IMG/VR virus record: IMGVR_UViG_3300031417_000415 | Reading direction: 5' to 3' (one strand) | Source: a virus | Lineage: Duplodnaviria; Heunggongvirae; Uroviricota; Caudoviricetes | DNA: 64,000 nucleotides | Shown here: positions 14,691 to 44,034 of the stretch, piece after piece | Layout of the letters: every line of letters starts with the position of its first letter | Position numbering within the stretch: the first letter of the stretch is position 1 | Translations under genes and position numbers: made by a program | The notes under the pieces: model-generated | Databases searched by the model: none | Seen by the model: only the letters and a program-made list of their open reading frames with translations | What the model was told of the DNA's origin: nothing

Positions 14691-14702
14691 TTTTCAGGAT
14701 AG
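14691..14702 (+). promoter_or_regulatory. TTTTCAGGATAG copy of the recurring TTTCAGGATGA motif in an AT-rich stretch
   Basis: one of six or seven copies, all 50-200 nt upstream of start codons. Confidence 0.3.
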
Positions 14703-14761
14703 CTCTTGCGCGGTTAACCATTTCGAGGTATTACTTCGTTAACCCCAGCAGGAGTACCGTC

Positions 14762-14917
14762 ATGCACTACGCAGCCATCGATCGCTCCACCAGCACCCCG
14801 GCTCCGGCACCGCGGGAACTGCGCCGCTACTCGCCGCGCATGACGCTGGCCATCCTGACGGGCATCTCGCTCACGAGCTGGTCTCTCATCATCATGGGTA
14901 TCCGCTCGGTCATCTGA
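14762..14917 (+). CDS. small membrane peptide (51 aa)
   Basis: RBS AGCAGGAG; hydrophobic C-terminus; followed by a canonical terminator. Confidence 0.25.
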   Translation: MHYAAIDRSTSTPAPAPRELRRYSPRMTLAILTGISLTSWSLIIMGIRSVI

Positions 14918-14943
14918 TCGCCTGCTCAGGTTACATCCATCAA

Positions 14944-14964
14944 GGGCCCTCCGGGGCCCTTTTT
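14944..14964 (+). terminator. rho-independent terminator GGGCCCTCCGGGGCCCTTTTT
   Basis: GC hairpin plus T5 run. Confidence 0.5.
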
Positions 14965-15006
14965 CGTGAGCGAGGCCCCGAAAAGACGGAAACGCTCCAC
15001 GGACGA

Positions 15007-15018
15007 TTTTCAGGATGA
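15007..15018 (+). promoter_or_regulatory. TTTTCAGGATGA motif copy
   Basis: recurring motif. Confidence 0.3.
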
Positions 15019-15212
15019 CACGGACCGATATCAACGGGTAGCATTGCGGATGGCCTACGGAAGGGAAAAGACCCGGAATCCGTCGCCGCGATGCGGCAGG
15101 CCGTCGTCGTCGCCCACGATACGGGCACCCAGCACCGCGAGCATGTCCACGGGAACCGGTCCTCCGGTACGCCCGACCGGCTGCGCGCACGTCCCCTGAA
15201 CGGAGCATCGCC

Positions 15213-16100: not shown

Positions 16101-16115
16101 CCCCTGACGACGAAC

Positions 16116-16142
16116 CCCGCGCCGGCTTTCGCCGACGCGGGG
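16116..16142. terminator. bidirectional hairpin CCCCGCG...CGCGGGG between convergent genes
   Basis: 7 bp GC stem between the 16100 stop (+) and the 16172 stop (-). Confidence 0.3.
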
Positions 16143-16171
16143 CCTCCCCGTCCCAGGGATGTCTTGCCGGA

Positions 16172-17290
16172 CTACCGGCCGACCATGGCCGCAACGGCGA
16201 ACGAGCGGGTCGCAGCCTGATGGGCGACGACGCGGTCGGCGTCCTGCATGGAAGCAGACTGCCTGACGCGGGGCGGAAGAGCAATAGCGCCTATCGTCGC
16301 CGTCCTCTGCGACGGACGCGATCCCGGCATTGCGTCGCGTACCATCTGCGCCGTGAGGGCCGCCTCCACCCAGACCTTCCGGTCCTCGACCCTGTCCCGA
16401 TCCGGAATCGGCGCCGTGTCGCTCCCGGGCACGTCGCGGAAGCGCAGGCGGAGCGAGGCCTCCGACATCATGCCAATGCGGGCAGCCTCGACGGCCACCG
16501 CCGCGTGCGCCTCGCGGCTGCGGTCGACGAGCAAGGGAGCGGGCTCCCAGGTCGTCTCTACCGGCCCACGGCGATGCGAGGCCGCGCGGACGACGGCCGA
16601 CGGCGAGAGCAGGCCCTGCCGGGCGGCGGCATGCTCGGCGCGCAGAGCGTCCTCCATCCACCTGCGCCGCTCCTCGCCGCGGTCCGGCATGGGCACGAAC
16701 GACGCGATGGGCATGTCGCGGAAGCGGTCCTGGATCACGCCCGTGCTCTGACGCTCCAGCATCTCGGATTCCGCCGCCACGCGCTCGTCGAGCCGGCGGC
16801 CGTCCTTCATGAAGTCCACGACGCGGCCCGTCACGTCGGCCCTGAGGGCGAAGGTGCGCTCGGGAAAGTTCGACGGGACGGTCTCGTCGGAGGCGAGCCG
16901 GCTGACGACCTGGCGGTCGATCGCGTCCAGGACCTGCGGACCGGCCTCGCCCTTGGGCGTCATGTAGTCGCCGTCACGCGACAGCGCCTCGAACATCTTG
17001 CGGTCGGTCCAGCCGTCGCGGCCGGGGCCCGGCAGCGGCACGAGGGCCTCGCTCTCGAAGCCGAAGGGCTGCCCCATGCTGCGCACCGCCTCGGCAGGCG
17101 TCATGTCCGCCGTGTGCCGCCTGAGTCTCATCATGATGGCGACCAGGCTGGCCTGATGCGGATCGAGACCGGCGGGCGCGGTCCACTCGGCATCGCTCTG
17201 GAGACGGGTCTCCGCGACCGGCTGCTCGGGCATCGCGGCCTGCTCCCTGGCGCCGGTGAGCCGTTCCTTCAGCCTTCCCACAAAACCCAT
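16172..17290 (-). CDS. hypothetical protein (372 aa), minus strand
   Basis: protein-like composition (E, D, K, M, F) against an R/G-rich spurious sense-strand ORF; divergent from the 17372 gene. Confidence 0.5.
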   Translation of the reverse strand: MGFVGRLKERLTGAREQAAMPEQPVAETRLQSDAEWTAPAGLDPHQASLVAIMMRLRRHTADMTPAEAVRSMGQPFGFESEALVPLPGPGRDGWTDRKMFEALSRDGDYMTPKGEAGPQVLDAIDRQVVSRLASDETVPSNFPERTFALRADVTGRVVDFMKDGRRLDERVAAESEMLERQSTGVIQDRFRDMPIASFVPMPDRGEERRRWMEDALRAEHAAARQGLLSPSAVVRAASHRRGPVETTWEPAPLLVDRSREAHAAVAVEAARIGMMSEASLRLRFRDVPGSDTAPIPDRDRVEDRKVWVEAALTAQMVRDAMPGSRPSQRTATIGAIALPPRVRQSASMQDADRVVAHQAATRSFAVAAMVGR

Positions 17291-17310
17291 GTCGCATGTC
17301 CCGATTGCAA

Positions 17311-17321
17311 TTTCAGGATGA
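17311..17321 (+). promoter_or_regulatory. TTTCAGGATGA motif in a divergent intergenic region
   Basis: recurring motif. Confidence 0.3.
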
Positions 17322-17371: not shown

Positions 17372-17674
17372 ATGAGCGTCGACCTCGTGCGCCTGCTGGC
17401 CTCCTCCCTGATCGCCCTCGTGGCGACGACCACGGTCGTATGGCTGCTGCGTCGGCCCTCCGGGCGACGCTCGATCATCCTGGGCTGCACCCTCTCGCTG
17501 GCCTGCATGTCGGTGCCTGCCATGGTAATGGCGTTCGGCCCCCTTCCCGAGACCGAGAGCGTGATCGGCCGTGCCTCGGCGATCATCCCGCCAGCAGAGC
17601 CGTACCGGGAGGTGCCACCCCCAAGCCGACGGGGAGACGTCATCCTGCTCAGGCCGGCATCTGTCTCACGGTAG
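17372..17674 (+). CDS. small membrane protein (100 aa)
   Basis: C-terminal part of a long spurious ORF; two TM helices; followed by a hairpin. Confidence 0.35.
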   Translation: MSVDLVRLLASSLIALVATTTVVWLLRRPSGRRSIILGCTLSLACMSVPAMVMAFGPLPETESVIGRASAIIPPAEPYREVPPPSRRGDVILLRPASVSR

Positions 17675-18193: not shown

Positions 18194-19852
18194 CTATTCG
18201 GATTTAGGCGTTGAAACACCTTTTGTTCTCAAACCAGACCGGTTAGTCCGCAACCATGCAGACGATCTCCGTGAGATGGACCACCGACAGTCAAGTCCGC
18301 GACACCGTCGCCGATTGGCTACGCATCGGTGCGGCCATGGTGCGTACCGGATATGCCGGCGGAGCGGACAGATCCGCCGGCGAAATCGAAGAGGTCATCA
18401 AGAAACGCTTCCCGGACCAGCCACTGGGAAGCTGGGCCGCGCACTGCGCGGCCTACGAGGCCAAGTCACTGAGGGCACGCGTGCCCAATGGGAGCATGGT
18501 GTTCGGCGGACGAGCCGAGCTGCTCCGCCGTCAGAAGGGGCTAATCTCCAGCAATATCTGGAAGGCGCGCCGCCACGGCCGCGCGCTGCCGATCATCGGC
18601 GACCGCACCCGATGGGGCAACCGACACTTCCGACTGTCGACCGACGCACGCAAATGCGTCATAACGTTCCTCAAGCACGAGGTGACTCTGGATCTGGTCG
18701 AAATGGCCGGCAAGCACGGCGCGCTGCTGCGCGCCATCGCCCTGCTCGCCGACGCCTGCCAGATCAGCGTACAGTTCTCGCTGACGCCGACGCACCTGAA
18801 CGTAACCTTCGACGAGATGGACCTGCGCCGGCTGCCGCCGGGCATGTCGCTCGAGGATGTGAAGATCCGCGAGCAGGGCGCGTCCCGCCGCGGGCGAAAA
18901 CGCAAGGACGCCTCGACGCACTATGCTGCGCACCGCATAAAGCACACCCCAGACCGGCCGGTGCACCCTGAGTGGCGTGATGCAGTACCTACCGTGGCTA
19001 CCCGCGCCATCGGCCTGGATCTAAACCCGGAATGGATCGGCATCTCCGTCATCCAGATCGACGGCGATCAACAGGATGCGGACCATGTCCGCATCCTCGA
19101 CCATGTCCTGCACCGCATCGCCGTCCCGTTCGCCGCCGAGGCCGCGAACATGACCCGTACCATGGCCAACGTGGCCGCTCAGATCATCAGTCTGGCACGC
19201 GCCTGGAACTGTGGCCTCGTCGTCCACGAGAACGGTCTCGGCAAGCTCGCCTGGTCCAAGAAATCCCGTTCCGGCCAGCAGCTGCAGACCGTGAACTACT
19301 GGTCCCGCAACGCGCTGATCGGCGGGCTGACCCGCCGCTGCAAGCTGGCGGACATAAGGTTTCTGCCAATCTGGGGTGGCTATTCCACCACGATCGGCAA
19401 CATGCTCTTCGAACTGCCTGACGCGTGCGCATCAGCAGCGGAGATCGCACGACGGGGCTTCGCCTCGACGTGCGGCATCAAGGACCGGTTTCCGGTTGTC
19501 CCAGTGCAGGTGGCTTCTCGCCGATGGAAGGATGAGAAGCTACCCACTGCCATGGTGAAGGCCCTGGCGAGCGCGGACAGCTGGCAGGCGGTCCACCGGG
19601 CAATCAAACCGGCGCAGGCCGGGACGCGCAAGCGTCCCGGCATTGGCTACCGTCGGCTGCATCCATTGTCCTCGAACATGGTACCCGGGCGCCTGCTCCG
19701 ACTTGGAGATACGGGCTACGCAGTGAACCGGCTTGGGAATGGAAAAGGAGTGAGCTGTTCGGCCCGCCCGGTTCGACTATCCAGAACGGTTCGAGATAGT
19801 TCGGACCGGGTGACGGTCAGCGTGAGCTGATTCCACACTCAAATCCGAATAG
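18194..19852 (+). mobile_element. 1.66 kb TIR-bounded element encoding a TnpB-like protein, with 10 bp target-site duplication GAAAACCAGG
   Basis: TIR-L CTATTCGGATTTAGG at 18194-18208 and TIR-R CTCAAATCCGAATAG at 19838-19852; direct repeat GAAAACCAGG at 18184-18193 and 19855-19864. Confidence 0.5.
18256..19830 (+). CDS. TnpB-like RuvC-fold nuclease (524 aa) with no recognisable zinc finger
   Basis: TnpB-like N-terminus; RuvC-I AIGLDLNPEWIGISV, RuvC-II LVVHENGLGKLAWS, RuvC-III DACASAAEIARRG; no CxxC..CxxC between II and III. Confidence 0.6.
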   Translation: MQTISVRWTTDSQVRDTVADWLRIGAAMVRTGYAGGADRSAGEIEEVIKKRFPDQPLGSWAAHCAAYEAKSLRARVPNGSMVFGGRAELLRRQKGLISSNIWKARRHGRALPIIGDRTRWGNRHFRLSTDARKCVITFLKHEVTLDLVEMAGKHGALLRAIALLADACQISVQFSLTPTHLNVTFDEMDLRRLPPGMSLEDVKIREQGASRRGRKRKDASTHYAAHRIKHTPDRPVHPEWRDAVPTVATRAIGLDLNPEWIGISVIQIDGDQQDADHVRILDHVLHRIAVPFAAEAANMTRTMANVAAQIISLARAWNCGLVVHENGLGKLAWSKKSRSGQQLQTVNYWSRNALIGGLTRRCKLADIRFLPIWGGYSTTIGNMLFELPDACASAAEIARRGFASTCGIKDRFPVVPVQVASRRWKDEKLPTAMVKALASADSWQAVHRAIKPAQAGTRKRPGIGYRRLHPLSSNMVPGRLLRLGDTGYAVNRLGNGKGVSCSARPVRLSRTVRDSSDRVTVSVS

Positions 19853-31370: not shown

Positions 31371-31407
31371 ATGCAGCATGTCAAAGCGACGGAAGGCCCG
31401 GCACGGG

Positions 31408-32019
31408 TCACATGCCGTTCGCGTCCTTGTAGGCCTGCCACGCCTTCGCACGTTCGGCTGCGCTAGGAGGAACCGGCATCGGACGCATCTTCTCCTGCGG
31501 CAGCGGCCCCGACGAGCGAAGGGTCGCGACGGCCTGGTATACCGGCGCCTTCAGACCAGCTGTGCTGGCCTGCGAGCAGACGCGGCGGATCTCCGACGGC
31601 GCGACGCGCGACCTGATGGCCGGAACCTTCCCCGTAGGCGGACGGTCGTCGCGATCGGACCGACGTACCTCGATCACGGCGTAGTTCGCCCGGCCGCAGT
31701 GGAGATCGATCCTGTACACGTCGTATCCCGCCCCGCCGTTGAGCACCACGATGCGGCCGCCGGTAGCGTCGACGTCGATGAGCGCCGGTACTGATCTCCC
31801 CCCGACGACGTCCATCCGGACCGGCTTCCAGACGCCGATGCGGATCCAGGGAAGACCTACGGCCTGCTCCGCGGTCCCGCGCGCGAACGCGATGCCGCCA
31901 GCCGACACATGGCGAGGCGCCGACACCGGTGGCGTCACGGTGGAGCGGTCCCCGCCCGGACCGCAGGCGCAGGCAGACAGCGCAAGCCCCAGACCCGCTA
32001 CGATGCCGATCCTGTTCAT
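31408..32019 (-). CDS. lipoprotein (lipobox LSAC)
   Basis: minus-strand ORF; MNRIGIVAGLGLALSACACGP signal. Confidence 0.45.
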   Translation of the reverse strand: MNRIGIVAGLGLALSACACGPGGDRSTVTPPVSAPRHVSAGGIAFARGTAEQAVGLPWIRIGVWKPVRMDVVGGRSVPALIDVDATGGRIVVLNGGAGYDVYRIDLHCGRANYAVIEVRRSDRDDRPPTGKVPAIRSRVAPSEIRRVCSQASTAGLKAPVYQAVATLRSSGPLPQEKMRPMPVPPSAAERAKAWQAYKDANGM

Positions 32020-32093
32020 CCTCAAACTCCCTTGCAATCGGACTGTTTTAGGATAAGCGTCAGGATTCCACAAACGGGTTTCGGGGCGGAAAG

Positions 32094-33638
32094 ATGCGGT
32101 CGGTTTTCATTGCGAGGATGGTCCTCGCCGGTGCTTCCATACAGATGGCTGCGTCAAGCCCGGCGTGGGCAGCCATGCAGACGTCGCCCGATCAGGAATC
32201 GGTGCTCATGAGGCGCCCCATCGACGACCGCATCGGCCGCGCGGACATCCCGAGCAACAATCCCAACCCGAACCCCAATCCCGGCGGCGGCACAAACCCG
32301 ACCGACCCGACCGACCCGACCGACCCGACGGATCCGACGGATCCCAGCATTCCCACAGAGCAGCCGATCGAGGGCGGCAGCCACGATCCCGACCTAGTCA
32401 ACGACCCCGGCGATCCGGGCTGGGCTCCAGGCACCTACCAGTGGACCACAGGTCCATGGCAGGGTGCAGCGGTATGCGGCCAGAAGTCGCAGCTGACCCG
32501 CGACGTCGGCTGCCAGCGCATCATGCCCTTCTTCGGCGGCGGCGGCCCGATCGGCCGTATCGATCCCACGCTGACGGGCAAGCCCGCGGTGATGAACGCC
32601 TCGTGGGGGATGAGCACGGCGGACGGGCCACGGCTGTCGAACGGAGTATACGACCCCGCATCTTCGGGCGTGAAGCGGAAGCTGGCGCAGTTCGGAGGCC
32701 CGGACAGCGGAGGCGACTTCGTGGTGGAGGACGTGCCGGTCTCCTACTGCAGGGAGGTCGAGAACGAGATCGGACCGGCTCCCATCAACTCCTACAGCGG
32801 CACGAAGGGCGGCTGCCAGTACGATCCGGTGAAGACCGGATCGTCGGACTGGGCGCTGCCGCCCTACGCACCGGGAACGGCGAGCTGCTCGGCAAGTGCG
32901 TTCCGGATCAACCAGTACCGCTGCCAGGCATCGGACGGAAGTTCGGCTCCGCTGGCCTACTGCCTCGAGAACCTCTCCGAGGGCGGCGTCCGCAACGGTC
33001 AGCTGGTCACGCCCGAATACGGCAACTTCTCGGGCTGCACCGCACGCTGGCTCACGTACGTCGAGGACAACTACTGCCACAAGTCGGGAGACCTCTCCAA
33101 CGGATACGGCGACGACGGCCCCGTGCATACGGCCAACTACCAGTCGCGCTGCACACGGTCCGACGGCAAGGAGCTGACGGGCATCGACGAGGCCGCCTGT
33201 GCCGCCAGCGACCGTCCCTTCGACGGAGTGCAGGTCGTCGGAGCGTGCCACAAGCAGTACGCGGTCGACTACGAATATGCCTGCTTCGTGGACAATAACG
33301 ATGTCGTCGTCCACCAGGAGATCGGGTTCTACGACTACTACACGAAGGGCACCAAGATGTGCAACGACGCGGGCGCCACGTGCTGCTCGCTGCGTCAGGT
33401 CTCCAACAACAACTACAGCGGTGCTCCCTACCGTGCGTACGAGGTGATCGGCACGAAGGGCAAGGCGGTGTCGAATCCCGGATGGTACTTCGACGATCGC
33501 GCCAAGCGCATCAGCAGCGAGGGCGAGGGACCGTACTTCTACAACTACGGCGGCGGTCGTGGACGGTTCGAGCCCGACCAGTATGTCGGGGGCGTGATCG
33601 ATCCCGGTCCGGGCAACGGCGGCGGTCCCGACAACTGA
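32094..33638 (+). CDS. secreted Cys-rich protein with (PTD)5 repeat
   Basis: signal peptide; PTDPTDPTDPTDPTDPS; many Cys and Trp. Confidence 0.5.
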   Translation: MRSVFIARMVLAGASIQMAASSPAWAAMQTSPDQESVLMRRPIDDRIGRADIPSNNPNPNPNPGGGTNPTDPTDPTDPTDPTDPSIPTEQPIEGGSHDPDLVNDPGDPGWAPGTYQWTTGPWQGAAVCGQKSQLTRDVGCQRIMPFFGGGGPIGRIDPTLTGKPAVMNASWGMSTADGPRLSNGVYDPASSGVKRKLAQFGGPDSGGDFVVEDVPVSYCREVENEIGPAPINSYSGTKGGCQYDPVKTGSSDWALPPYAPGTASCSASAFRINQYRCQASDGSSAPLAYCLENLSEGGVRNGQLVTPEYGNFSGCTARWLTYVEDNYCHKSGDLSNGYGDDGPVHTANYQSRCTRSDGKELTGIDEAACAASDRPFDGVQVVGACHKQYAVDYEYACFVDNNDVVVHQEIGFYDYYTKGTKMCNDAGATCCSLRQVSNNNYSGAPYRAYEVIGTKGKAVSNPGWYFDDRAKRISSEGEGPYFYNYGGGRGRFEPDQYVGGVIDPGPGNGGGPDN

Positions 33639-33744
33639 TCATAGTCGCCCGAGCACGGACGGACGGGCCGGCATCCATCGGATGCCGGCCTTTTCCATGC
33701 CCGATACGCGGAACGGACCAGAACAGGCATCAAGGAGGAAAAAG

Positions 33745-34503
33745 ATGACGGACGTGCATTCCGACCCATGGCACCAGCTGGCCGAAGACATCGAGAACGG
33801 CTGCGCGGAGTTCAACCGCGACCGCATCGACGCGCGGCAGAGGCCGTTCCCCTTCCCCGTAGACGTGGTGCGTCGGCTGCTGCTCGTCCTGAAGGACGCG
33901 AGGCGCCCGCTTCCGGCATTCGACATCGTGACCGACGGTCCGGAATGGCGCCTCATGCTGCGCTGGACGCGGATCGGCGGCGAGGCGTACGTCACGGCTT
34001 CCAGGGACGACGTGATCGACGTTCGCGTCGCGCTGGACGGGCGCGTACTCGTGGACACGCAGGAGGCGCGCTATGCTTCGTTCGATCCGCAGCCGCTGCT
34101 GGACGCGCTGGACCACTTCACCGCGCTCAAGCAGGTCCTCGTGGTACGCCGTGACCTGAAGATGCGCCAGGGCAAGGCCTGCTCGCAGGCATCGCATGCT
34201 TCCGGCGAATTCATGCGCGAGCAGATCGTCGCGGCCATCCACCGCCACGACGATCTCAACTTCAGCGACGACGAGATCGAGTGGATGACGCTGGGCATGG
34301 CCAAGATCACCGTCCGGGCCGACACCGTAGAGCAGTTCGAGCAGGTGCAGGCCGACGCGCTGGCCCGGGGACTGAAGGTCCGTACCATCACGGACAGCGG
34401 GCGCACGGAGTTCGCCGGGGTGCCGACCATCACCGCGCTGGCGATCGGACCGACGCGCTCAGCCTATGTCGATCCTATCACTGGTGCAATGACCCTGCTG
34501 TAG
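33745..34503 (+). CDS. two-domain protein with C-terminal peptidyl-tRNA hydrolase PTH2 domain
   Basis: conserved AAGGAGGAAAAAG-ATG motif; LVVRRDLKMRQGKACSQASHAS and RTITDSGRTEFAGVPTITALAIGP match PTH2. Confidence 0.5.
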   Translation: MTDVHSDPWHQLAEDIENGCAEFNRDRIDARQRPFPFPVDVVRRLLLVLKDARRPLPAFDIVTDGPEWRLMLRWTRIGGEAYVTASRDDVIDVRVALDGRVLVDTQEARYASFDPQPLLDALDHFTALKQVLVVRRDLKMRQGKACSQASHASGEFMREQIVAAIHRHDDLNFSDDEIEWMTLGMAKITVRADTVEQFEQVQADALARGLKVRTITDSGRTEFAGVPTITALAIGPTRSAYVDPITGAMTLL

Positions 34504-34517
34504 GACCTTACGGACAG

Positions 34518-34528
34518 TTTCAGGATGA
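34518..34528 (+). promoter_or_regulatory. TTTCAGGATGA motif
   Basis: 62 nt upstream of the 34590 start. Confidence 0.3.
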
Positions 34529-34589
34529 GTCTTGACGAGGCAGTGGGCAAGGGGCATCGCGATGCGGACTCAGTTTCCGAAAGTCCACG

Positions 34590-35642
34590 ATGCGCCTTCT
34601 CGTCATGTCCATCCTGCTGTCCGCGACGGCGATCCCTGTATCAGCGCAGACGGCGGACACCATCGTCATGCGCAAGGTCATGGGGGCCATCGCCTACCCC
34701 AAAGACCTGAAGCCCAAGTACGGCTGGGCCTATGGGGAGTGGACATCACCGACGAACGCCTGCGGTACGACCGTGCAGACGCGCACGGTGACCTGCGTCA
34801 AGGGAGGCAGGCCCGAATCCCCCGATCTGTGCCGGCAGGCGCCACAGGCAGCCACGCGTACGGTCGAGGACCTGTCCAGCTGCGTGTACGACTGGAAGAC
34901 GACCTACAGCGGCTGGCAGGGAAGCTGCACTGCGGCGGCCACCCGGTCCGCAACCAGCGTCTGCCGTCGCTCCGACGGCACCGTCGTGGCCGACGCCTTA
35001 TGCGATTACACCAGCCGCCCCAAGACGGTGGAAACCGCCGCGAACTATGCTGGATGCGTCTACGACTGGAAGGTAGGGACATGGAGTCAGTGGAGCTCGA
35101 CGTGCTCCAACAGCAGCCTGCATACGCGGTCGGTGACCTGCGAGGCAATGACGGACGAAGGCACCGGCATCAGGGGGACGGTCGACAAGTGCAGGACGCC
35201 GCAGCCGGTCGACCGCGAGACGCAGAAGATCGTCACCGACTGCACAGGAATGCTGGTCAACGGCAACTTCGAGAGCGACATGACCGGCTGGACGCCCACA
35301 AGTCGTGCATCGATCAGTTCAACCGTCGCCCACGGCGGCAAGAAGTCGATGCAGATATACAACACGAGCTCGATCTCGCAGACCATCCAGACCGTCATAG
35401 GCGCAAGCTACAGCGTCACGTTCTACTCGTACCAGTACGGATCGAACGGAATACGTCTCATGATCGGCGGCAACCTGATCGCAGGAGGCCGGGGCTCCAA
35501 CGGCAACTACGAGTGGTTCCAGCGTTCCGGATCCTTCGTGGCGACCTCGGACACGACCAAGCTGACTTTCCTTGCAGAAGGCGGGTTCACCTTCACGTCC
35601 GAGTACGTAGACGACATCGTGGTTGCCCAGTCGCCCATGTAG
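34590..35642 (+). CDS. secreted protein with thrombospondin-type-1-like Cys/Trp repeats and C-terminal carbohydrate-binding-module-like beta domain
   Basis: signal peptide; repeats YGEWTSPTNACGTTVQTRTVTC / YDWKVGTWSQWSSTCSNSSLHTRSVTC; C-terminus NGNFES..GWT. Confidence 0.5.
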   Translation: MRLLVMSILLSATAIPVSAQTADTIVMRKVMGAIAYPKDLKPKYGWAYGEWTSPTNACGTTVQTRTVTCVKGGRPESPDLCRQAPQAATRTVEDLSSCVYDWKTTYSGWQGSCTAAATRSATSVCRRSDGTVVADALCDYTSRPKTVETAANYAGCVYDWKVGTWSQWSSTCSNSSLHTRSVTCEAMTDEGTGIRGTVDKCRTPQPVDRETQKIVTDCTGMLVNGNFESDMTGWTPTSRASISSTVAHGGKKSMQIYNTSSISQTIQTVIGASYSVTFYSYQYGSNGIRLMIGGNLIAGGRGSNGNYEWFQRSGSFVATSDTTKLTFLAEGGFTFTSEYVDDIVVAQSPM

Positions 35643-35682
35643 GCGGCCCCACCTGGCGGGGCCGCCCGTCGAGAGACGTCAG

Positions 35683-36651: not shown

Positions 36652-39600
36652 TTATCCAGTGCAGCTGCAGATGACGTTCTTGGATCCCGTAGTGGACGGA
36701 TACCCGCCTCCGTAAGATCGCTGAAGACCGTAGATCGTCCCGTAGACGCCGTTCTTCGACACGTCGCACGTTCCCGGATTGGTGCTGTTCGGCGTGTTCG
36801 AGAGATACTCGGGCCCACCGGACGCAGCGCCGTTGCTGAGCGCGTAGTACACCCACGGAATGGTTGTCATCGAGGTCGGCATGCGGCTGCTGCCCCAGCT
36901 CGTCGCGGCGCCGGACGAGCCATATCCCGGACCGCCAGCGGTCCAGCTGCACGACAGCGTGCAGGCCTGCGAGATCGTCCAGGGCTGACCACGGTTGACG
37001 CACTCCTCACCCGCCACGCTGGCGCCGTCGGAACGACGGCACAGGTTCATGCCCTGCGTCTTCGTACCGTTGGTGCACGCACCGAACGCGCCGTAGAAGG
37101 CCTGATAGGTATAGTACGTGCAGGCCTGCGAACGCGTCCATGGCTGACCGCGCGCGACGCACTCGTCGCCGGCGACGCTCGCACCGTCGGAACGCTGGCA
37201 CAGGTTCATGCCCTGCGTCTGGGTGCCATTGCTCTGGCACTCGCCGAAACCACCGTAGTACGCCGTGTAGCCGCAACCGGCGACGTTCGAGTAGCCCTGC
37301 GCACCGGCAGGCTGGCCGCCGCCGCACAGCGATCCGTCGACACGGGCCCCGTCAGAACGCTGGCACCACACGTCGCGGTACTCGGTGCCGGTCGTGCAGA
37401 CCGCCTGCTGGCCCGACCAGCCGCCTGCCTGCCACGAGTAGCCGCAACCCGAGAAGTTGGCGGTCTGGACCGACTGGGAAGTCGGAATACCCCGGTTCGA
37501 GCACTCGGCGATCGCAACATCGGCACCATCCGACCGACGACAGCCAGTCGCGTACTGAGTCGCCGTGGTATTTCCCGAACAGCTACTGGCGTAGTTGTAG
37601 CCGCTCCAGCCAGATACGGAATAGCCGCACGCCGCGTAGTTGGTATAGTTCTCGGTCGTCGGCGGCTTGCCGCCTCCGCAATAGGCCTCTGCCACGCGGG
37701 CACCGTCGGACCGGACGCAGGCGACGTCGCGGCTGTACGACGCGGTGCCGCAGACAGCCTGCTGTGCAGGGTAGCCGTAGGCGACCCAGCTGTAGCCGCA
37801 GGCCGAATAGTCGGCGAAGGTCTGAGAAGCAGCTGGCCTCGCGCCGGCGTTGCAGTAGCCTTCGGCGACCGTGGCACCGTCGGAGCGCTGGCACCATACG
37901 GACCGGGCCTGGCTGACCGATCCGCAGCTCTGCGCGGTGGTGCCCCAGCCGTTGTACGCCCAGCCGTACGAGCAGGCCGAATAGTCGGTGACGCCTTCGC
38001 CATCGGGCGGCCGCGTGCCGGGATTGCAGTTGCCCGCATCCACCGTGGCGCCGTCCGAGCGGGTGCACCACACCGCACGATAGCGGGCCGAAGCGCCGCA
38101 GGCCGCGGCAGGAACGCCCCAGCCGCCGGTGCTCCAGGTATAGCCGCACCCGTCGTAGATGCCCGTGGTCTCGGAGCGCGACGGTACGGCGACGCCGCGA
38201 TCGGTGCAGTACTGGTCGCCGGCGAACACATTGTCGCCCGCGCGGTAGCAGGTCGCGGTCCGCGTCCGGGTGGCCGACGCCGAGCAGTGACTGTTGTAGT
38301 CGGTCCAGCCGCTGACCGAGAAATACCCCGGGCAGGCGTTGGTGTAGTTCGCCCCGGTCTGGGTCTCGGTCAGCAATATACCGCGCGCGGTGCACTCGCC
38401 CGCAGCGACGATCGTTCCGTCGGAGCGCTGGCACGAATAGGTACGGGTGCGATTCGCCGTGCCCGAGCAGGCGTTGTCCCACCCGCTCCACGCCGACGGG
38501 CTGACGCGCGAGTAGCCGCACTGGTCATACACGGCAGCAGTCTCGCTGTTGTTCAGCGTCGGACCAAATCCCTCACGGGTCGCATCAGGTCGGGCAGCGC
38601 ACTGCGCATTGTCAATCTTGCGATAACAGTTGCCGCCGCCGGCGTCAGACCAGTAGTTGGCAGAGCCAACGACACAGCGTTCCTCATGGCGAAAACAGCC
38701 TATGTCACGGGTACGCGTGGCATTGGTGGAGCAGTGGCTATTCCAGTCGGTGAACCCGGAAGCCGCATACCAGTACGGAGCACAGGAGCCGTAGTTGGCG
38801 ATCGTCTGAGACGTGGTCGGCTTGGCAGCGGTGCATTCCGCGTCGCCGACCGTCTGACCATCTGAACGCTGGCATGTCACCGAACGGGTCTGCACGGCCG
38901 CAGCCGAGCAGCCGCTGTCCGGGGAACCCCAGGCGCCGACGTTCCACGTGCGGGCGCACCCGGCGGTCTGATAGGACGCCTGCGAGGTATCGGGCTTGGC
39001 GGTGGCGCAGAAGCTGTCTGCCACCGTACGACCGTCGGAGCTCTGGCACGTTACGGGTCGGGTCTGGGTCGCGCTACCACACGTTGCCGACCATGCGCCG
39101 AACGACCCCACGGACCAGCCGTAGGTGCAGGTCGAATAATCGGTCGCCGCCTGCTGCGCGGCGGGACGGCTGCCGGCGGCACACGATCCGTCGGCGACCG
39201 TCTGGCCGTCAGATCGCAGACAGGTGACCGAACGGTTCTGCACGGTCGGCCCACATGCCGGAACGGGCGAGCCGAAGGCACCGGCATTCCAGGAATAGCC
39301 GCATCCGCTCGTCTCGTAGGTCGTTTTCGAGAGATCGGGCTTCGCACCCGAACAGGAGGCGTCGGCGACAGTACGGCCATCGGAGGAAAGACAGGTGACG
39401 CTGCGCGTGGAGGTCGCGCTGCCGCAGGTCGTCGACGGCGCGCTCCAGGCGGCCGGGTTCCAGGAGTAGGTGCAGGTCTGGTAGTCGGTGACGGCCTCGC
39501 TGACGGCGGGCTTCGTTCCCGCATCGCACGATCCGTCAGCGACGACGTCGCCGTTGGAGCGCACGCACTGCACGCTGCGCGACCTGGACGATGGGCCGCA

Positions 39601-40503
39601 CGCAGGCGCGACGGCGCCCCAGGCCTGCTCCTTCCAGGAATAGCTGCACTGGCCGTACTGGTCGCCGGTCTCGCTGACGGCCGGCTTGGCGCCAGCTGCG
39701 CCGCACATGGCATCAGCGACCTCGTCACCGTTAGAACGGAGGCAGACGACCTCGCGGGTACGGGTCGCTCCCGTCTGGCACGACGACGACCACGGGGTCC
39801 ACGCCTTCTCCTTCCAGGAGTAGCCGCACTGGCCGTAGCGATCCTCGGTCTGCGATGCCGCAGGCTTCTTGCCCGAAGCCGAGCACTCGGCATCCGTGAC
39901 CTTCTCGCCGTTCGACCGCTCGCACCACACGTTGCGGGTCGAGGTCGCGGCAGTCTGGCACTCGCCCGAGAACGCCGACCATACGTCGTTCTTCCACTCG
40001 TACGAGCAGGTGCGCAGGTCGCGGACCTCGCGGCTCGTATCTGGGGCAGGAGCCGGGCACTGGTCGTTGGGGACCGTCTTGCCGTCGCCGCGCAGGCAGG
40101 TCAGCTCGCGGGTCTCGACCACCTGGCCGCAGCCGGAGGCATCGGTCCACTCGCCGGGCTGCCAGGTGTAGTCGCAGCCCTGGATGTCGTAGCACGACTG
40201 GTTGTCGGCAGGACGGTTCGGGCCGCAGTTGACCTCCGGAGAACCATGCTTGCCGTTCATCATGCACTGGACGGCGCGGGTCTGCTGACCGGCGCCGCAG
40301 CTGTTCGAGCACTGGCTCCATGCATCCGGGATCCACGCGTAGGTGCGGGTCTTCGGATCGAGCGAGCGGCGCATCACGACGACGCCCGAGTCCGCCTGCG
40401 CATACGCCGCGGTGGACTGCAGCATGCCAATTGCGATGAGTGACGCTGCTGCATACGCGGCAAGACGCATAGTTCGGACTCCCGATGGATTTGGGAGAAG
40501 CAT
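36652..40503 (-). CDS. giant secreted protein (1283 aa) of about 20 tandem thrombospondin-type-1-like repeats
   Basis: signal peptide; repeated unit W..WS.TCGSATQTR.VTC..SDG.TVAD..C...KP; the long sense-strand ORF is R/A/G-rich junk. Confidence 0.55.
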   Translation of the reverse strand: MLLPNPSGVRTMRLAAYAAASLIAIGMLQSTAAYAQADSGVVVMRRSLDPKTRTYAWIPDAWSQCSNSCGAGQQTRAVQCMMNGKHGSPEVNCGPNRPADNQSCYDIQGCDYTWQPGEWTDASGCGQVVETRELTCLRGDGKTVPNDQCPAPAPDTSREVRDLRTCSYEWKNDVWSAFSGECQTAATSTRNVWCERSNGEKVTDAECSASGKKPAASQTEDRYGQCGYSWKEKAWTPWSSSCQTGATRTREVVCLRSNGDEVADAMCGAAGAKPAVSETGDQYGQCSYSWKEQAWGAVAPACGPSSRSRSVQCVRSNGDVVADGSCDAGTKPAVSEAVTDYQTCTYSWNPAAWSAPSTTCGSATSTRSVTCLSSDGRTVADASCSGAKPDLSKTTYETSGCGYSWNAGAFGSPVPACGPTVQNRSVTCLRSDGQTVADGSCAAGSRPAAQQAATDYSTCTYGWSVGSFGAWSATCGSATQTRPVTCQSSDGRTVADSFCATAKPDTSQASYQTAGCARTWNVGAWGSPDSGCSAAAVQTRSVTCQRSDGQTVGDAECTAAKPTTSQTIANYGSCAPYWYAASGFTDWNSHCSTNATRTRDIGCFRHEERCVVGSANYWSDAGGGNCYRKIDNAQCAARPDATREGFGPTLNNSETAAVYDQCGYSRVSPSAWSGWDNACSGTANRTRTYSCQRSDGTIVAAGECTARGILLTETQTGANYTNACPGYFSVSGWTDYNSHCSASATRTRTATCYRAGDNVFAGDQYCTDRGVAVPSRSETTGIYDGCGYTWSTGGWGVPAAACGASARYRAVWCTRSDGATVDAGNCNPGTRPPDGEGVTDYSACSYGWAYNGWGTTAQSCGSVSQARSVWCQRSDGATVAEGYCNAGARPAASQTFADYSACGYSWVAYGYPAQQAVCGTASYSRDVACVRSDGARVAEAYCGGGKPPTTENYTNYAACGYSVSGWSGYNYASSCSGNTTATQYATGCRRSDGADVAIAECSNRGIPTSQSVQTANFSGCGYSWQAGGWSGQQAVCTTGTEYRDVWCQRSDGARVDGSLCGGGQPAGAQGYSNVAGCGYTAYYGGFGECQSNGTQTQGMNLCQRSDGASVAGDECVARGQPWTRSQACTYYTYQAFYGAFGACTNGTKTQGMNLCRRSDGASVAGEECVNRGQPWTISQACTLSCSWTAGGPGYGSSGAATSWGSSRMPTSMTTIPWVYYALSNGAASGGPEYLSNTPNSTNPGTCDVSKNGVYGTIYGLQRSYGGGYPSTTGSKNVICSCTG

Positions 40504-40572
40504 AGAGTCAACATGCCGCTACGTCATCCGTAAAACGGCATCTCGAAGCACGAAATTGCCGAAATCGACCTG

Positions 40573-40583
40573 TTTCAGGATGA
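40573..40583 (+). promoter_or_regulatory. TTTCAGGATGA motif
   Basis: 49 nt upstream of the 40632 start. Confidence 0.3.
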
Positions 40584-41252: not shown

Positions 41253-41266
41253 CGAGGAGGAAAACC

Positions 41267-41674
41267 ATGAGAATCTTCATGGACGACGACCGCAACCACC
41301 CGCTCGGCGAGGACTGGATCGTCGTCAGGACCGTCGAGGACATGCTCGATCTGGTCGATCGCCACGACGCCGATATCCGCGAGATCTCCTTCGACAACGA
41401 CCTGCGCCAGGAACTCGACGGCATCCATGGGCTGACCATGGTCCGCGAGCACATGCTCGACGATCCGACGCGGCTGCCCGCTCTCGAGCGGATCACGGTG
41501 CACAGCCTGAACGGCGAGGCCGCCAAGGCCATGCTGAGCGACCTCGTCTCGTACGTGAAGCACGGCGTGCTGCCCGACATCAAGATCAGACGCCGGCCGG
41601 CGGAGGGCACGCTCTATCCGCTCCTGACCGAGGACGACCGCGGCATCGTCGCGTACGCGCGTCCCGGCGCATGA
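41267..41674 (+). CDS. receiver(REC)-like domain protein
   Basis: conserved GAGGAGGAAAACC-ATG motif; N-terminus MRIFMDDDRNHP...WIVVRTVEDMLDLV...ISFDNDL. Confidence 0.35.
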   Translation: MRIFMDDDRNHPLGEDWIVVRTVEDMLDLVDRHDADIREISFDNDLRQELDGIHGLTMVREHMLDDPTRLPALERITVHSLNGEAAKAMLSDLVSYVKHGVLPDIKIRRRPAEGTLYPLLTEDDRGIVAYARPGA

Positions 41675-41937
41675 GCGGGATAACGCCCTCGGCCACCATC
41701 CCGATCGGCGACGTCGCGGCCATGATGGACCGCATGTGGCAGGAGATGGTCGGCTTTCCGATGGCGCGGGTCTGCATGCACTATGCCGCAGGCATCGTCA
41801 TCCAGGAAATGGAGAAGCTCGACATCGCCCCGCCGGACGACATCGTCCGCGCCGTCGTGTTCGCGCACGACGACATACCGCTCGCCTGGACGCGTCCGGC
41901 GACATCGAAACCCGCATCCGGAGACCAGACGCCATGA
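41671..41937 (+). CDS. hypothetical protein
   Basis: ATGA overlap. Confidence 0.3.
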   Translation: MSGITPSATIPIGDVAAMMDRMWQEMVGFPMARVCMHYAAGIVIQEMEKLDIAPPDDIVRAVVFAHDDIPLAWTRPATSKPASGDQTP

Positions 41938-42476
41938 CCGACATTCCGACAGTCTCCTACGACGACATCCGCTCGCGATTCGAGGCGGACGGCATCAGGA
42001 TCGGAGACGTGCACCGCTCGCACGAGCACTTCGTGGACTGGCACGCGCGCCACGACCTTCCTGACCGGGACGCCGACGGCATGGCGATCGGCATGTCGCA
42101 CATCTTCATGTCGATGTACGACGCGGCTCCGGACGGACGCGCGCAGCGCCCGCCGTACGTCAACTTCTGGCACTGGATGCTCGACGCCTACGAACACGTC
42201 GAATGGGACGAGACGCCCCAGGGCCGTCGCAAGACGGTGCCGCTGAGCCGCGGCATGCACCAGCCCAGAGCCCCACTGTCCGAAGAGGAGGCGACCGCGG
42301 CGATCGCCGCCATGCTTGGCTCTACCGTGCTTCCCAAGGACATGCGCCGGTCGATCGACGAGCACGTGCGGCAGGACCTCTCCGATCTGGTGGTACGCCA
42401 CAACGAGAGTCTCCGGATCGTCGACGTCATCCTCGACCGGTACGGGGACGAGATCCTGGTACTGATGAGCGTCTGA
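41934..42476 (+). CDS. hypothetical protein
   Basis: ATGA overlap. Confidence 0.4.
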   Translation: MTDIPTVSYDDIRSRFEADGIRIGDVHRSHEHFVDWHARHDLPDRDADGMAIGMSHIFMSMYDAAPDGRAQRPPYVNFWHWMLDAYEHVEWDETPQGRRKTVPLSRGMHQPRAPLSEEEATAAIAAMLGSTVLPKDMRRSIDEHVRQDLSDLVVRHNESLRIVDVILDRYGDEILVLMSV

Positions 42477-42529
42477 AGGGCAGACCTTCGGAAAGAACGC
42501 GACGAGACGGATTCCAGAGAGGAAAAGCG

Positions 42530-43510
42530 ATGAACGAGAAGACCACTTCGCCGGCGGCCCTGACCACCCTGCGCAGCATCACCGGCGCGCTGTACCGCCA
42601 TGGCCCGAAGGAGAGCCGGGAGTTCCTGTCGCTCGCGACGCGGCTGGAGACCGGCATCTGGGCAGGCATCAAGGACCGGGGCGTGTTCCCCGGAAAGGTC
42701 TACGGCAAGTTCTGCGGCACCGAGGTCGTGGTCGACCTCTACCTGCACCTCGTCGCCAAGGACGGCACGGTCTCCGAGCACCCTGTCCAGTGGGCCATGC
42801 GCACGACCTTCCCGCCAGTCGTCCTTCTGGGCGTGCCCGGCGACGTGGGCGAGACGCCGCAGATCGCGCCGACCGCCGAGATGTCGTGGCCGCAGTACCA
42901 GACGATCCATCGGCCGGACATCGTCGGCGTCAGCCGCTTCGGCACCTTCGTGCCGCGCGGCGAGACGAAGTTCGACCGGCCGGTCACCGGCGTCGTCGGC
43001 TCGATCTACGAGGATCCGATGATCCAGACCTACCGCTGCGGCTCCGACGACGCCCATGACGCGCGCGCTATCTGCGTCAGCGCATCGTACGACTATCCCT
43101 CCGACGCGATCGTCGGCTGCCCGGCGGTGGACGACTTCGGTCGTCTCGTCGGCGTCACGATCGGCACCGATCCCGGGCCGGAACGCGGCCATGTCGGCAT
43201 GTACGTGCCGGCAGATCTCGTCATCACCGCGATCCCGATGGCGCGTGCCGCGATCGGAGCGCTCCGTCGCGGCGACCGGCACTCGACCGGCATCGAGCGC
43301 GTGCAGTTCTGGAACAGCGACGTCATGTTCGACGAGGAGTTCGTGCCGGACCGCCGTCCGAGCCACCGCCTCGACCAGATGGTCAAGGTCGTGCTGCCAC
43401 GTCGCACCTGGGACGCGATCATCGACCAGGCCGAGGCCGGATACGGCGCAGAGGCGAGCCAGGATTCCTACGCCGAAGTCGACGCGCTGAAGACCGCCGT
43501 CGGCGAATGA
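42530..43510 (+). CDS. hypothetical protein (326 aa)
   Basis: conserved GAGAGGAAAAGCG-ATG motif. Confidence 0.4.
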   Translation: MNEKTTSPAALTTLRSITGALYRHGPKESREFLSLATRLETGIWAGIKDRGVFPGKVYGKFCGTEVVVDLYLHLVAKDGTVSEHPVQWAMRTTFPPVVLLGVPGDVGETPQIAPTAEMSWPQYQTIHRPDIVGVSRFGTFVPRGETKFDRPVTGVVGSIYEDPMIQTYRCGSDDAHDARAICVSASYDYPSDAIVGCPAVDDFGRLVGVTIGTDPGPERGHVGMYVPADLVITAIPMARAAIGALRRGDRHSTGIERVQFWNSDVMFDEEFVPDRRPSHRLDQMVKVVLPRRTWDAIIDQAEAGYGAEASQDSYAEVDALKTAVGE

Positions 43511-43959
43511 GCGACCTGACGACCGTCCCGGCGGAGGAGGGCATCCCCTCCGTCGAGGACATCGCCATCCGGATCTCGGGTGACGCCGATCCGGACGAGA
43601 TCGTCCTCCAGATGGCCCGGGCTGTACGGTCGCGCATCGTCGCGATCAGGCACCGGGAGGCCGCACGGCCATGCATCACGTGCCGCCACCGCATCTCGCC
43701 CGGGGCCACTCCCGTCTTCATCGGAGTCTGCGTCAACCCGGTCGTCGCCGAGGTATCGTACCGTCCTGACAGCGGCGACATGAAAATCAGAGGCGTGAAC
43801 TGCGTCGAGGAGCGGGGTGTACGGCCCGGATACCGGAAGCGGATACATGTCTGCGGTCCGGAGGGGCTCCTGCACGAGCCGATGGCCGTATCCTTCCTGA
43901 TGCCCCGCCTACGAGCCTATCTGCGATGGCTGAGGCTGGGGAATGACATCCAGCACTAG
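43507..43959 (+). CDS. hypothetical protein
   Basis: ATGA overlap. Confidence 0.35.
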   Translation: MSDLTTVPAEEGIPSVEDIAIRISGDADPDEIVLQMARAVRSRIVAIRHREAARPCITCRHRISPGATPVFIGVCVNPVVAEVSYRPDSGDMKIRGVNCVEERGVRPGYRKRIHVCGPEGLLHEPMAVSFLMPRLRAYLRWLRLGNDIQH

Positions 43960-44034
43960 CTCATTCCATCCTGAAAGTTCTTCACTCCCGTCGGTCCGGC
44001 GTGATACGATGCGTGGACACGAAGGGAAAAGACG

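What the first reader, a model, noticed from the sequence alone, without database searches (positions are those of the whole stretch)
14691..43977. Recurrent TTTCAGGATGA motif 50-200 nt upstream of start codons
Copies sit at 14692, 15007, 17311, 34518, 40573, a weaker copy at 32045 and an inverted copy at 43967. Each lies in a locally AT-richer intergenic patch, ahead of the genes starting at 14762, 15213, 17372, 34590, 40632 and 32094. The 17311 copy is in a divergent promoter region. This is a candidate promoter element or transcription-factor site specific to this element. It does not resemble sigma-70 -35/-10.
Basis: seen in the sequence. Interest (0 to 1): 0.5.

Follow-up and report, generated by a model that had tools for sequence, protein, structure and literature searches.

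The report
Dispersed 11-bp regulatory box, giant plasmid
A short DNA word (TTTcAGGATGr) recurs just upstream of about a dozen genes on a giant, largely uncharacterised Sphingomonas plasmid-like element; it is most likely the docking site of one regulatory protein that switches a set of accessory, mostly secreted-protein genes on or off together.

Summary
TTTCAGGATGA occurs 4 times exactly (0.01 expected). The relaxed form TTTNNGGATRR occurs 10 times (0.33 expected), and 9 of those are intergenic. Four more intergenic copies lie in the 10-kb contig flanks, giving 13 sites in 84 kb. Twelve sites have a clear downstream gene, and 11 of these lie 34-62 nt before its start codon. The box stays intact in relatives at 79-93% protein identity while the flanks diverge.

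It has no conserved partner element on either side and no shared RNA fold. It works in both orientations: 9 copies are co-oriented with the gene and 4 are reversed, at the same distance. Inverted pairs occur, including a perfect palindrome on a distant Sphingosinicella megaplasmid. At the two recognisable sigma-70-like promoters it abuts or overlaps the -35 hexamer. Two box-bearing units are strain-variable gene cassettes.

Best reading: an asymmetric operator for an unidentified transcription factor controlling a regulon of accessory genes, many of them secreted or membrane proteins. The nearest analogue is the dispersed C1 operators of phage P1. A promoter element for an element-encoded sigma factor is the main rival.

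This is a new, unassigned regulatory motif of an ordinary kind. The giant element itself is the more interesting object.

The parts
14692..14702 (+). Box copy TTTCAGGATAG. It sits 3 bp upstream of a sigma-70-like promoter (-35 TTGCGC 14706-14711, 17-bp spacer, -10 TATTAC 14729-14734) and 60 nt before the ATG at 14762 of a 51-aa membrane protein.
   Evidence: The box, TTGCG and TATT are conserved in L008 and L009.
15008..15018 (+). Exact box. Its last 4 nt belong to the -35-like hexamer ATGACA (15015-15020), followed by an 18-bp spacer and the -10-like TAGCAT (15039-15044). A 195-nt conserved leader runs to the ATG at 15213.
   Evidence: Both hexamers are kept in Sphingomonas sp. 3-13AW (L007), while the spacer has diverged.
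17311..17321 (+). Exact box in the divergent region between 16172-17290 (minus strand) and 17372-17674 (plus strand, 100-aa membrane protein).
   Evidence: All 11 of 11 positions are invariant in four lineages.
32016..32026 (-). Box copy TTTGAGGATGA. It is the partner of 32046, 30 bp centre to centre, and overlaps the ATG of the minus-strand lipoprotein gene (31408-32020).
32046..32056 (+). Box copy TTTTAGGATAA, 38 nt before the ATG at 32094 of a 514-aa secreted cysteine-rich protein.
   Evidence: It lies inside a cassette of about 2.3 kb (31.4-33.7 kb) that is absent from L101-L103 and L011.
34518..34528 (+). Exact box, 62 nt before the ATG at 34590 of a secreted TSP1/DUF642 protein. It is 14 nt from the 5' junction of a strain-variable cassette (34504-35682).
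40524..40534 (-). Box copy TTTACGGATGA, 54 nt before the ATG (40470) of the 1272-aa secreted TSP1-repeat protein on the minus strand.
   Evidence: The orthologous site in L013 is TTTCCGGATGG.
40573..40583 (+). Exact box, 49 nt before the ATG at 40632 (101-aa protein). It pairs with 40524, 49 bp centre to centre.
43966..43976 (-). Reversed box (TTTCAGGATGG on the minus strand). It lies 7 nt after the stop of the plus-strand gene 43507-43959 and 59 nt before the plus-strand gene at 44035. No minus-strand gene follows it.

Best explanation
TTTcAGGATGr is an asymmetric operator: the binding site of one sequence-specific DNA-binding regulator that is not yet identified. The regulator is probably encoded by this family of giant Sphingomonadales plasmid-like elements rather than by the host.

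One box, or an inverted pair of boxes, sits in the promoter region of about a dozen transcription units per 84 kb. Many of these units encode secreted, lipoprotein or small membrane proteins. They include thrombospondin-type-1-repeat proteins and strain-variable 'moron-like' cassettes.

Bound protein would act on host RNA polymerase at the -35 region and so couple these scattered units into one regulon.

**Shown:**
- the enrichment and the intergenic placement 34-62 nt before start codons;
- conservation of the box across relatives;
- use in both orientations;
- the lack of any partner element;
- the position at or next to the -35 hexamer in two promoters.

**Inferred:**
- that a protein binds the box;
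- that one protein serves all sites;
- the sign of regulation. I lean slightly to repression because extra copies overlap a -10 hexamer and a start codon, and because palindromic pairs exist.
For: **Enrichment and placement**
- Exact 11-mer: 4 against 0.01 expected. Relaxed pattern: 10 against 0.33.
- 13 of 14 matches in 84 kb are intergenic, P about 4e-11.
- Distance from box end to start codon is 34-62 nt for 11 of 12 sites, median 55.

**Conservation**
- Invariant box columns are 9-11 of 11. Upstream flank columns are 4-27 of 40 invariant, across relatives at 71-93% protein identity.

**Features of the box itself**
- No information content in the 35 nt on either side.
- No common RNA fold.

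**Orientation**
- Nine copies are co-oriented and four reversed (p = 0.27 against 50:50).
- The reversed copies lie 34-59 nt upstream of plus-strand genes, with no minus-strand gene downstream.

**Inverted pairs**
- Centre-to-centre spacings are 19, 30, 40 and 49 bp.
- A perfect palindrome, CTCATCCTGAAAC-5-GTTTCAGGATGAG, lies on Sphingosinicella plasmid p1.

**Relation to promoters**
- The box ends 3 bp upstream of the -35 at 14692 and overlaps the -35 at 15008.
- In L008 an extra inverted copy overlaps the -10.

**Cassettes and host control**
- Two box-bearing units are indels between strains.
- There is no intergenic use in 1.43 Mb of Sphingomonadaceae chromosomal DNA. The only exact hits are one orthologous clpX coding site.
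Against: - No candidate regulator was found. No HTH or sigma family appears among 84 window proteins in Pfam or PHROGs.
- There are no binding or expression data.
- A 9:4 orientation bias is also compatible with a directional element.
- The chromosomal control covers only the clpP neighbourhood, so a host factor with a small regulon is not excluded.
- On the complete Sphingosinicella plasmid the box occurs only once, as a palindrome, in the 327 kb scanned. It is therefore not a dispersed regulon there.
- The offset of the box relative to the two predicted promoters differs by 6 bp (centres at about -44 and -38). This argues against one fixed activator geometry.
Confidence: 0.55

Rival explanations
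1. The box is a core promoter element for an element-encoded sigma factor or RNA polymerase. It would be a single-block promoter, like the T4 late TATAAATA or a replacement -35 box. Transcription would start a fixed short distance downstream and define a temporal or conditional gene class.
For: - Nine of 13 copies point toward the downstream gene, including both minus-strand units.
- Distances of 34-62 nt to the start codon fit a TSS just after the box plus a 25-55-nt leader.
- Several boxes follow terminator-like hairpins or open independent cassettes.
- The distantly related plasmid p1 encodes three sigma-like proteins.
- Relative L007 carries a GAAT variant at both of its sites.
Against: - Four reversed copies sit at the same distance upstream of plus-strand genes, with no gene in their own direction.
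- The palindromes in p1 and L013 have a gene on one side only.
- No conserved second block or initiation region exists.
- At 14692 and 15008 conserved sigma-70-like hexamers lie at different offsets from the box.
- One copy overlaps the start codon of the gene it would have to drive.
- No sigma or RNAP gene lies in the window or its flanks.
Confidence: 0.2
2. The box is the site of a conserved host (Sphingomonadales) global regulator. Accessory cassettes on the element have recruited it, and it is not an element-specific system.
For: - The identical 11-mer appears on a Sphingosinicella plasmid whose shared marker protein is only 36% identical.
- Cassettes that come and go between strains carry the box with them.
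- The element's ClpP is 80-85% identical to host ClpP, which shows gene flow from the host.
Against: - No intergenic copies occur in 1.43 Mb from 80 Sphingomonadaceae chromosomes.
- The density on the element, about 1 per 6.5 kb, is far above that of typical host regulons.
- L007 shows a lineage-specific GAAT variant.
Confidence: 0.15
3. The box is a recombination or insertion signal that marks the boundaries of mobile gene cassettes, in the manner of an integron attC site.
For: The box at 34518 lies 14 nt from the 5' junction of a strain-variable cassette. Box-bearing units include two indels.
Against: - The empty site in L011 has no box or half-box.
- In the 31.4-33.7 kb cassette the boxes are internal, in the divergent promoter, and not at the junctions.
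- Most boxes show no indel.
- Other indels, such as TnpB and the 524-aa gene, lack the box.
- No flanking inverted-repeat structure is present.
Confidence: 0.04
4. The box acts at the RNA level in 5' leaders, for example as a processing, antitermination or translational-control signal comparable to ops or RegA sites.
For: The box lies in the region between the presumed promoter and the start codon at several sites. The forward orientation predominates.
Against: - At 14692 it lies upstream of the conserved -35/-10 pair and so would not be transcribed.
- Reversed copies would present the complement.
- There is no shared fold.
- There is no Rfam match in the window.
Confidence: 0.03

Closest known systems
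Phage P1 C1 repressor operators
   Same: Both are short asymmetric operators dispersed over a large plasmid-like genome. P1 has 22 sites on about 94 kb (PMC8546580); here there are 13 on 84 kb. Both occur in either orientation, singly or as inverted pairs, at or over promoters of otherwise unrelated operons.
   Different: The P1 consensus is 17 bp (ATTGCTCTAATAAATTT) and unrelated in sequence. No C1 homologue was found. Repression is not shown here. The element is 6-10 times larger and carries plasmid functions rather than proven phage functions.
MarA/SoxS/Rob 'marbox' and other monomeric class II activators
   Same: Both are asymmetric sites that abut or overlap the -35 hexamer of sigma-70-type promoters. 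Both are used in both orientations and scattered over a regulon (from general knowledge).
   Different: The marbox is about 20 bp and degenerate, and its orientation is tied to its distance from the -35. Here forward and reversed copies share the same distance range. No AraC-family gene was seen.
Phage T4 MotA box and T4 late promoter TATAAATA
   Same: Both are single short conserved blocks that define a class of transcription units in a large mobile genome (from general knowledge).
   Different: Those elements are strictly directional and lie at a fixed distance from the TSS. The present box also occurs reversed and lies at different offsets from the recognisable -10 hexamers.
Phage 'morons' (promoter-gene-terminator cassettes)
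   Same: Two box-bearing units are present or absent between strains. They are inserted between conserved genes and bounded by a terminator. They encode secreted or surface proteins.
   Different: Morons normally carry unrelated promoters. Here independent cassettes share one regulatory box.

Membership tests
Sigma-70-type bipartite promoter (-35/-10) | Two conserved hexamers 16-18 bp apart, at a fixed position relative to the motif. | tested here: not met
   No information content within 35 nt on either side of 17 aligned sites. The consensus scan finds a promoter at only one site, 15008.
Single-block directional promoter (T4 late / MotA-box type) | Strict co-orientation with the transcribed gene. 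| tested here: not met
   Four of 13 copies are reversed, upstream of plus-strand genes, with no gene in their own direction. Palindromes in p1 and L013 have a gene on one side only.
Single-block directional promoter (T4 late / MotA-box type) | Transcription start at a fixed distance from the box. | not testable with these tools
   No transcriptome or 5'-end data are available for this uncultured element.
Transcription-factor operator / regulon motif | Over-represented, restricted to intergenic promoter regions, and conserved more than its flanks. | tested here: met
   for enrichment and intergenic restriction. for 9-11 of 11 invariant box columns against 4-27 of 40 in upstream flanks.
Transcription-factor operator / regulon motif | Functions in either orientation and may occur as inverted pairs. 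| tested here: met
Transcription-factor operator / regulon motif | A cognate DNA-binding protein exists. | tested here: inconclusive
   No HTH or sigma family among the window proteins. The Fic-wHTH gene next to the p1 palindrome was tested and rejected, because its homologues carry other upstream repeats.
P1 C1-type immunity network | A C1-family repressor gene and a phage lytic-lysogenic switch. | not tested
   Only 84 kb of a contig of at least 552 kb could be read. No phage structural genes were seen in it.
Integron attC / cassette recombination site | The site lies at cassette junctions, has an imperfect inverted-repeat structure, and leaves a hybrid site at empty loci. | tested here: not met
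Known RNA families (Rfam) | A covariance-model match at or above the gathering score. | tested here: not met
   No match in the whole window.

The most novel reading that the evidence does not exclude
The box is the operator of a master regulator. That regulator would be either a P1-C1-like immunity or silencing protein, or an element-encoded sigma-associated factor. It would gate a whole class of secreted thrombospondin-repeat and envelope proteins on a half-megabase to megabase-scale Sphingomonas extrachromosomal element that combines plasmid replication and partition genes with jumbo-phage-like RNA-repair gene sets. The box would then give a handle on how such giant elements programme their accessory genes.
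Probability: 0.2. Interest if true: 0.6.

Novelty: new member of a known kind. Interest (0 to 1): 0.35.

Why it matters
The box gives the first regulatory handle on a family of giant (347 kb to over 1 Mb), almost entirely uncharacterised Sphingomonadales replicons. It defines a candidate regulon of secreted TSP1-repeat, lipoprotein and small membrane proteins, and it shows that independently gained cassettes are wired into one control circuit. It can be used directly as bait (DNA pull-down or DAP-seq) to find the regulator, and as a search pattern to annotate related elements. As a biological principle, a dispersed operator or regulon motif is ordinary.

Tried and rejected
**1. Bipartite promoter.** I looked for a -35 or -10 partner at fixed spacing upstream or downstream of the box. 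There is none.

**2. Start codon or uORF.** I asked whether the ATG inside the box starts a small ORF. The frames are inconsistent between sites.

**3. RNA structure or known RNA.** There is no shared fold and no Rfam hit.

**4. Known factor sites recalled from memory.** I compared the box with these consensus sites:
- sigma-54
- EcfG (GGAAC-N16-CGTT)
- CtrA
- LexA
- Fur, Irr and Mur
- the DnaA box
- the lux box
- RfaH ops
- the sigma-32 -35 element, which would lie on the reverse strand

None fits the sequence, or the orientation it would require is wrong.

**5. Fic-wHTH protein as the cognate factor.** This protein lies next to the palindrome on plasmid p1.
- Six homologues on other alphaproteobacterial plasmids carry different repeats directly upstream and lack the box.
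- No homologue is present in the window or its flanks.
- Rejected.

**6. Cassette recombination site.** Rejected on the junction sequences.

**7. TTTCAGGA at 22140 and TTTCCGGATGG at 51775.** Both lie inside genes and are treated as chance matches.

**8. Literature search for the sequence.** It returned only unrelated primers.

**9. Searches that found nothing.**
- Nucleotide searches of phage and plasmid collections, and an IMG/VR scan, found no close relative.
- A homologue search with the 350-aa TSP1/DUF642 protein returned only the query itself.
Full report
**Observation**

- The exact 11-mer TTTCAGGATGA occurs four times in the window, at 15008, 17311, 34518 and 40573, all on the + strand. 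Dinucleotide-preserving shuffles give 0.01 expected.
- With up to two mismatches there are 20 matches against 6.6 expected. All of the excess is intergenic.
- The form that fits all credible copies, TTTNNGGATRR, gives 10 matches against 0.33 expected.
- Nine of these are intergenic. The tenth (51775) lies in an uncalled 68-aa minus-strand gene.
- It is the most over-represented 11-mer in the window.
Each faces a minus-strand gene in a divergent intergenic region.
- GC within 50 nt of the sites is 0.50-0.57, against 0.665 overall.

**What the sequence is**

- The window is 67% GC.
- My codon-usage gene calls give 84 genes, nearly all on the + strand.
- Most genes are ORFans. The recognisable families are:
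  - polynucleotide kinase-phosphatase
  - RNA ligase
  - cREC_REC
  - HAD_SAK_2
  - PTH2
  - ART-PolyVal
  - R2K ATP-grasp
  - ADP-ribosylglycohydrolase
  - ClpP
  - a cation-efflux protein
  - an IS605-family TnpB
- The window is part of a 552,210-bp metagenomic contig. Identical proteins occur on a 1,059,898-bp contig.
- A relative at 71% protein identity lies on a 581,572-bp contig of Sphingomonas sp. 3-13AW, next to RepA_C and ParA genes.
- The element's ClpP is 80-85% identical to chromosomal ClpP of many Sphingomonas species. The host is therefore a Sphingomonas.
- Distant relatives exist as complete megaplasmids.
  - One is Sphingosinicella sp. BN140058 p1. It is 347 kb and carries a T4SS, a relaxase, DnaE, DnaN, RNR, ligase and three sigma-like genes.
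  - The other is a 408-kb Erythrobacter aureus plasmid.

**More copies and their placement**

The 10-kb flanks of the same contig hold four further intergenic copies:

| Locus and position | Strand | Sequence | Distance to next gene |
|---|---|---|---|
| L018 4463 | - | TTTCAGGATGG | 34 nt before a + gene |
| L019 14102 | + | exact | 43 nt before a gene |
| L019 12705 | - | exact | 56 nt before the ATG of a secreted TSP1-like protein |
| L019 17015 | - | TTTCTGGATGG | 57 nt before a + gene |

- That makes 13 intergenic sites in 84 kb. Thirteen of 14 pattern matches are intergenic where about 13% of the DNA is non-coding, so P is about 4e-11.
- The gap from box to start codon is 34-62 nt for 11 of 12 sites, with a median of 55. 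The exception is 195 nt at 15008.
- The downstream products are enriched for exported proteins:
  - a 51-aa and a 100-aa membrane protein
  - a lipoprotein
  - a 514-aa cysteine-rich secreted protein
  - three thrombospondin-type-1-repeat proteins with signal peptides

**Conservation**

- In L009 (93% protein identity) and L008 (79%) the boxes at the sites orthologous to 15008 and 17311 are identical. The flanks diverge.
- In L007 (71%) the 15008 orthologue is TTTCCGAATGA.
- Nine to eleven of 11 box columns are invariant. In the 40 nt upstream, 4, 9 and 27 columns are invariant.
- The weak copy at 40524 is matched by TTTCCGGATGG upstream of the orthologous TSP1 gene in L013.

**What kind of element it is**

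- Seventeen sites aligned on the box show no information on either side. There is therefore no -35 or -10 partner.
- There is no common RNA fold and no Rfam family in the window.
- Orientation is not tied to the gene. Nine copies are co-oriented and four reversed (p = 0.27). The reversed ones sit at the same distance from + genes, and no minus-strand gene follows them.
- Inverted pairs occur with centre-to-centre spacings of:
  - 19 bp in L013
  - 30 bp at 32016/32046
  - 40 bp in L008
  - 49 bp at 40524/40573
- Plasmid p1 has a perfect palindrome, CTCATCCTGAAAC-cgcca-GTTTCAGGATGAG, 67 nt upstream of a gene. It is the only credible copy in the 327 kb of p1 that I scanned.
- Where a sigma-70-like promoter can be recognised and is conserved, the box is next to or inside the -35 hexamer.

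| Site | -35 hexamer | Spacer | -10 hexamer | Relation of box to -35 |
|---|---|---|---|---|
| 14692 | TTGCGC (14706) | 17 bp | TATTAC (14729) | box ends 3 bp upstream |
| 15008 | ATGACA (15015) | 18 bp | TAGCAT (15039) | box supplies the first four bases |

- At 15008 both hexamers are kept in L007 while the spacer has changed.
- In L008 an extra inverted copy overlaps the -10.
- At 32016 a copy overlaps a start codon.
- Together these features fit a protein-binding operator better than a core promoter element.

**Cassettes**

- Strain comparison shows two insertions bounded by terminators next to conserved genes.
  - One is the unit at 31.4-33.7 kb: a lipoprotein gene, a box pair and a secreted 514-aa gene.
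  - The other is the unit at 34.5-35.65 kb: a box and a TSP1/DUF642 gene.
- They are absent from L101-L103 and/or L011.
- The empty site has no box, so the box is not an insertion site.
- It is part of the cassette's own control region, like a moron promoter, except that it is shared between cassettes.

**Host or element?**

- In 1.43 Mb around clpP from 80 Sphingomonadaceae genomes, the exact 11-mer occurs only at one orthologous clpX coding position.
- Pattern matches outside confident coding sequence number at most about 10 in 303 kb there, against 11 in 13 kb on the element.
- This argues against a host-wide motif, but it samples only one neighbourhood.
- L007 carries GAAT instead of GGAT at both of its sites and no GGAT form. 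This hints at co-evolution with an element-encoded factor.
- The identical box on the distant p1 argues instead for a conserved factor.

**Regulator**

- None was identified.
- Window proteins have no HTH or sigma domain.
- The Fic-wHTH gene downstream of the p1 palindrome was considered. Six homologues on other plasmids carry different repeats directly upstream and lack the box, and there is no homologue near the window. I rejected it.

**Comparison with known systems**

- The nearest analogue in logic is phage P1. Its C1 repressor uses 22 asymmetric 17-bp operators dispersed on the plasmid prophage (PMC8546580).
- MarA/SoxS boxes share the asymmetry and the -35 overlap.
- The T4 MotA box and late promoters share the single-block form but are strictly directional.
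- The sequence matches no consensus I could recall, and the literature search found nothing relevant.

**Verdict**

This is a real, conserved cis-regulatory box. My confidence in each reading is:

| Reading | Confidence |
|---|---|
| Transcription-factor operator defining an accessory-gene regulon on a giant Sphingomonas element | 0.55 |
| Promoter element for an element-encoded sigma | 0.2 |
| Site of a host global regulator | 0.15 |

The kind of feature is ordinary. The motif and its regulon are new, and the host element is the more remarkable object.

Noticed in passing
whole window; L001, L007, L018, L019, L108-L120: The window is part of a contig of at least 552 kb, and identical proteins lie on a 1.06-Mb contig. 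The element is a Sphingomonas element with nearly unidirectional, mostly ORFan genes. Relatives carry RepA_C and ParA (Sphingomonas sp. 3-13AW, 581 kb). Distant relatives are complete conjugative megaplasmids with their own DnaE, DnaN, RNR, ligase and sigma-like genes (Sphingosinicella p1, 347 kb; Erythrobacter aureus, 408 kb). This looks like a family of giant plasmids carrying jumbo-phage-like gene sets.
   Followed up: partly
window 51-875, 4357-4992, 33745-34503, 41267-41674, 48712-49662; L018 4928-7561: There is a dense set of RNA-repair and translation-rescue genes: R2K ATP-grasp, HAD_SAK_2, PTH2, cREC_REC, PNKP and, in the flank, an 877-aa kinase-phosphatase-RNA ligase fusion. An ART-PolyVal gene and an ADP-ribosylglycohydrolase are also present.
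   Followed up: no
window 13000-14400: An IS605-family TnpB (13061-14320, minus strand) with flanking hairpins is inserted between two conserved genes. The insertion is absent from strains L002 and L004.
   Followed up: partly
window 11079, 44022, 46567, 54503, 60070 and 15061: A second over-represented word, AAGGGAAAAGA, starts 12-13 nt before the start codons called at 11091, 44035, 46579 and 54515, and looks like a conserved ribosome-binding region. No matching start was confirmed for the 60070 copy. The copy at 15061 is conserved in relatives but is not followed by a start codon.
   Followed up: partly
window 15008-15212: A 195-nt leader lies upstream of the 295-aa gene. It has blocks conserved down to the 71%-identity relative (GGTAGCAT, ATGGCCTGCGG, GCCGC..TGCGGCA). 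It could be a structured 5' UTR or a small RNA. It has no Rfam match.
   Followed up: partly
window 56291-56427: Three tandem copies of a 56-57-nt repeat (TGTCTTGGGAC..CAATGTCGAC..GCCGACAGCG) lie directly upstream of the element's clpP gene. They form an iteron-like or operator-like array.
   Followed up: partly
window 34590-35642, 36652-40470 (minus strand), 32094-33638; L019 12761-13999: Several secreted, cysteine-rich proteins carry thrombospondin type-1-like repeats. One has 1272 aa with many repeats. This is unusual cargo for a bacterial plasmid or phage.
   Followed up: no
window 31400-33725 and 34504-35682; 18256-19830: Gene cassettes are present or absent between otherwise near-identical strains. 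The first two carry the box. The 524-aa gene does not.
   Followed up: yes
L108 21655-21683 (NZ_CP035502.1 156327-156355) and L108 10224-31025: On Sphingosinicella p1 the box occurs once, as a perfect 13-bp-arm palindrome, followed by three GAGGAATAGA repeats upstream of a Fic-wHTH gene. The same plasmid has about 9 copies of GGGATGAAATCA before small paralogous genes.
   Followed up: partly
L113 about 278-288 and L114 257-268: A related word, TTTCAGGACGCT, lies about 130-140 nt upstream of Fic genes on two other Sphingomonadaceae plasmids, in opposite orientations. Its relation to the box is unclear.
   Followed up: no
L019 12171-12700: A stretch of about 530 nt with no convincing ORF lies upstream of the reversed box and the TSP1-like gene. 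It is possibly non-coding RNA or a decayed gene.
   Followed up: no
window 51683-51889 (minus strand): A plausible 68-aa minus-strand gene with its own RBS was missed by my gene caller. Its 3' end overlaps the end of the + gene 50946-51707.
   Followed up: partly
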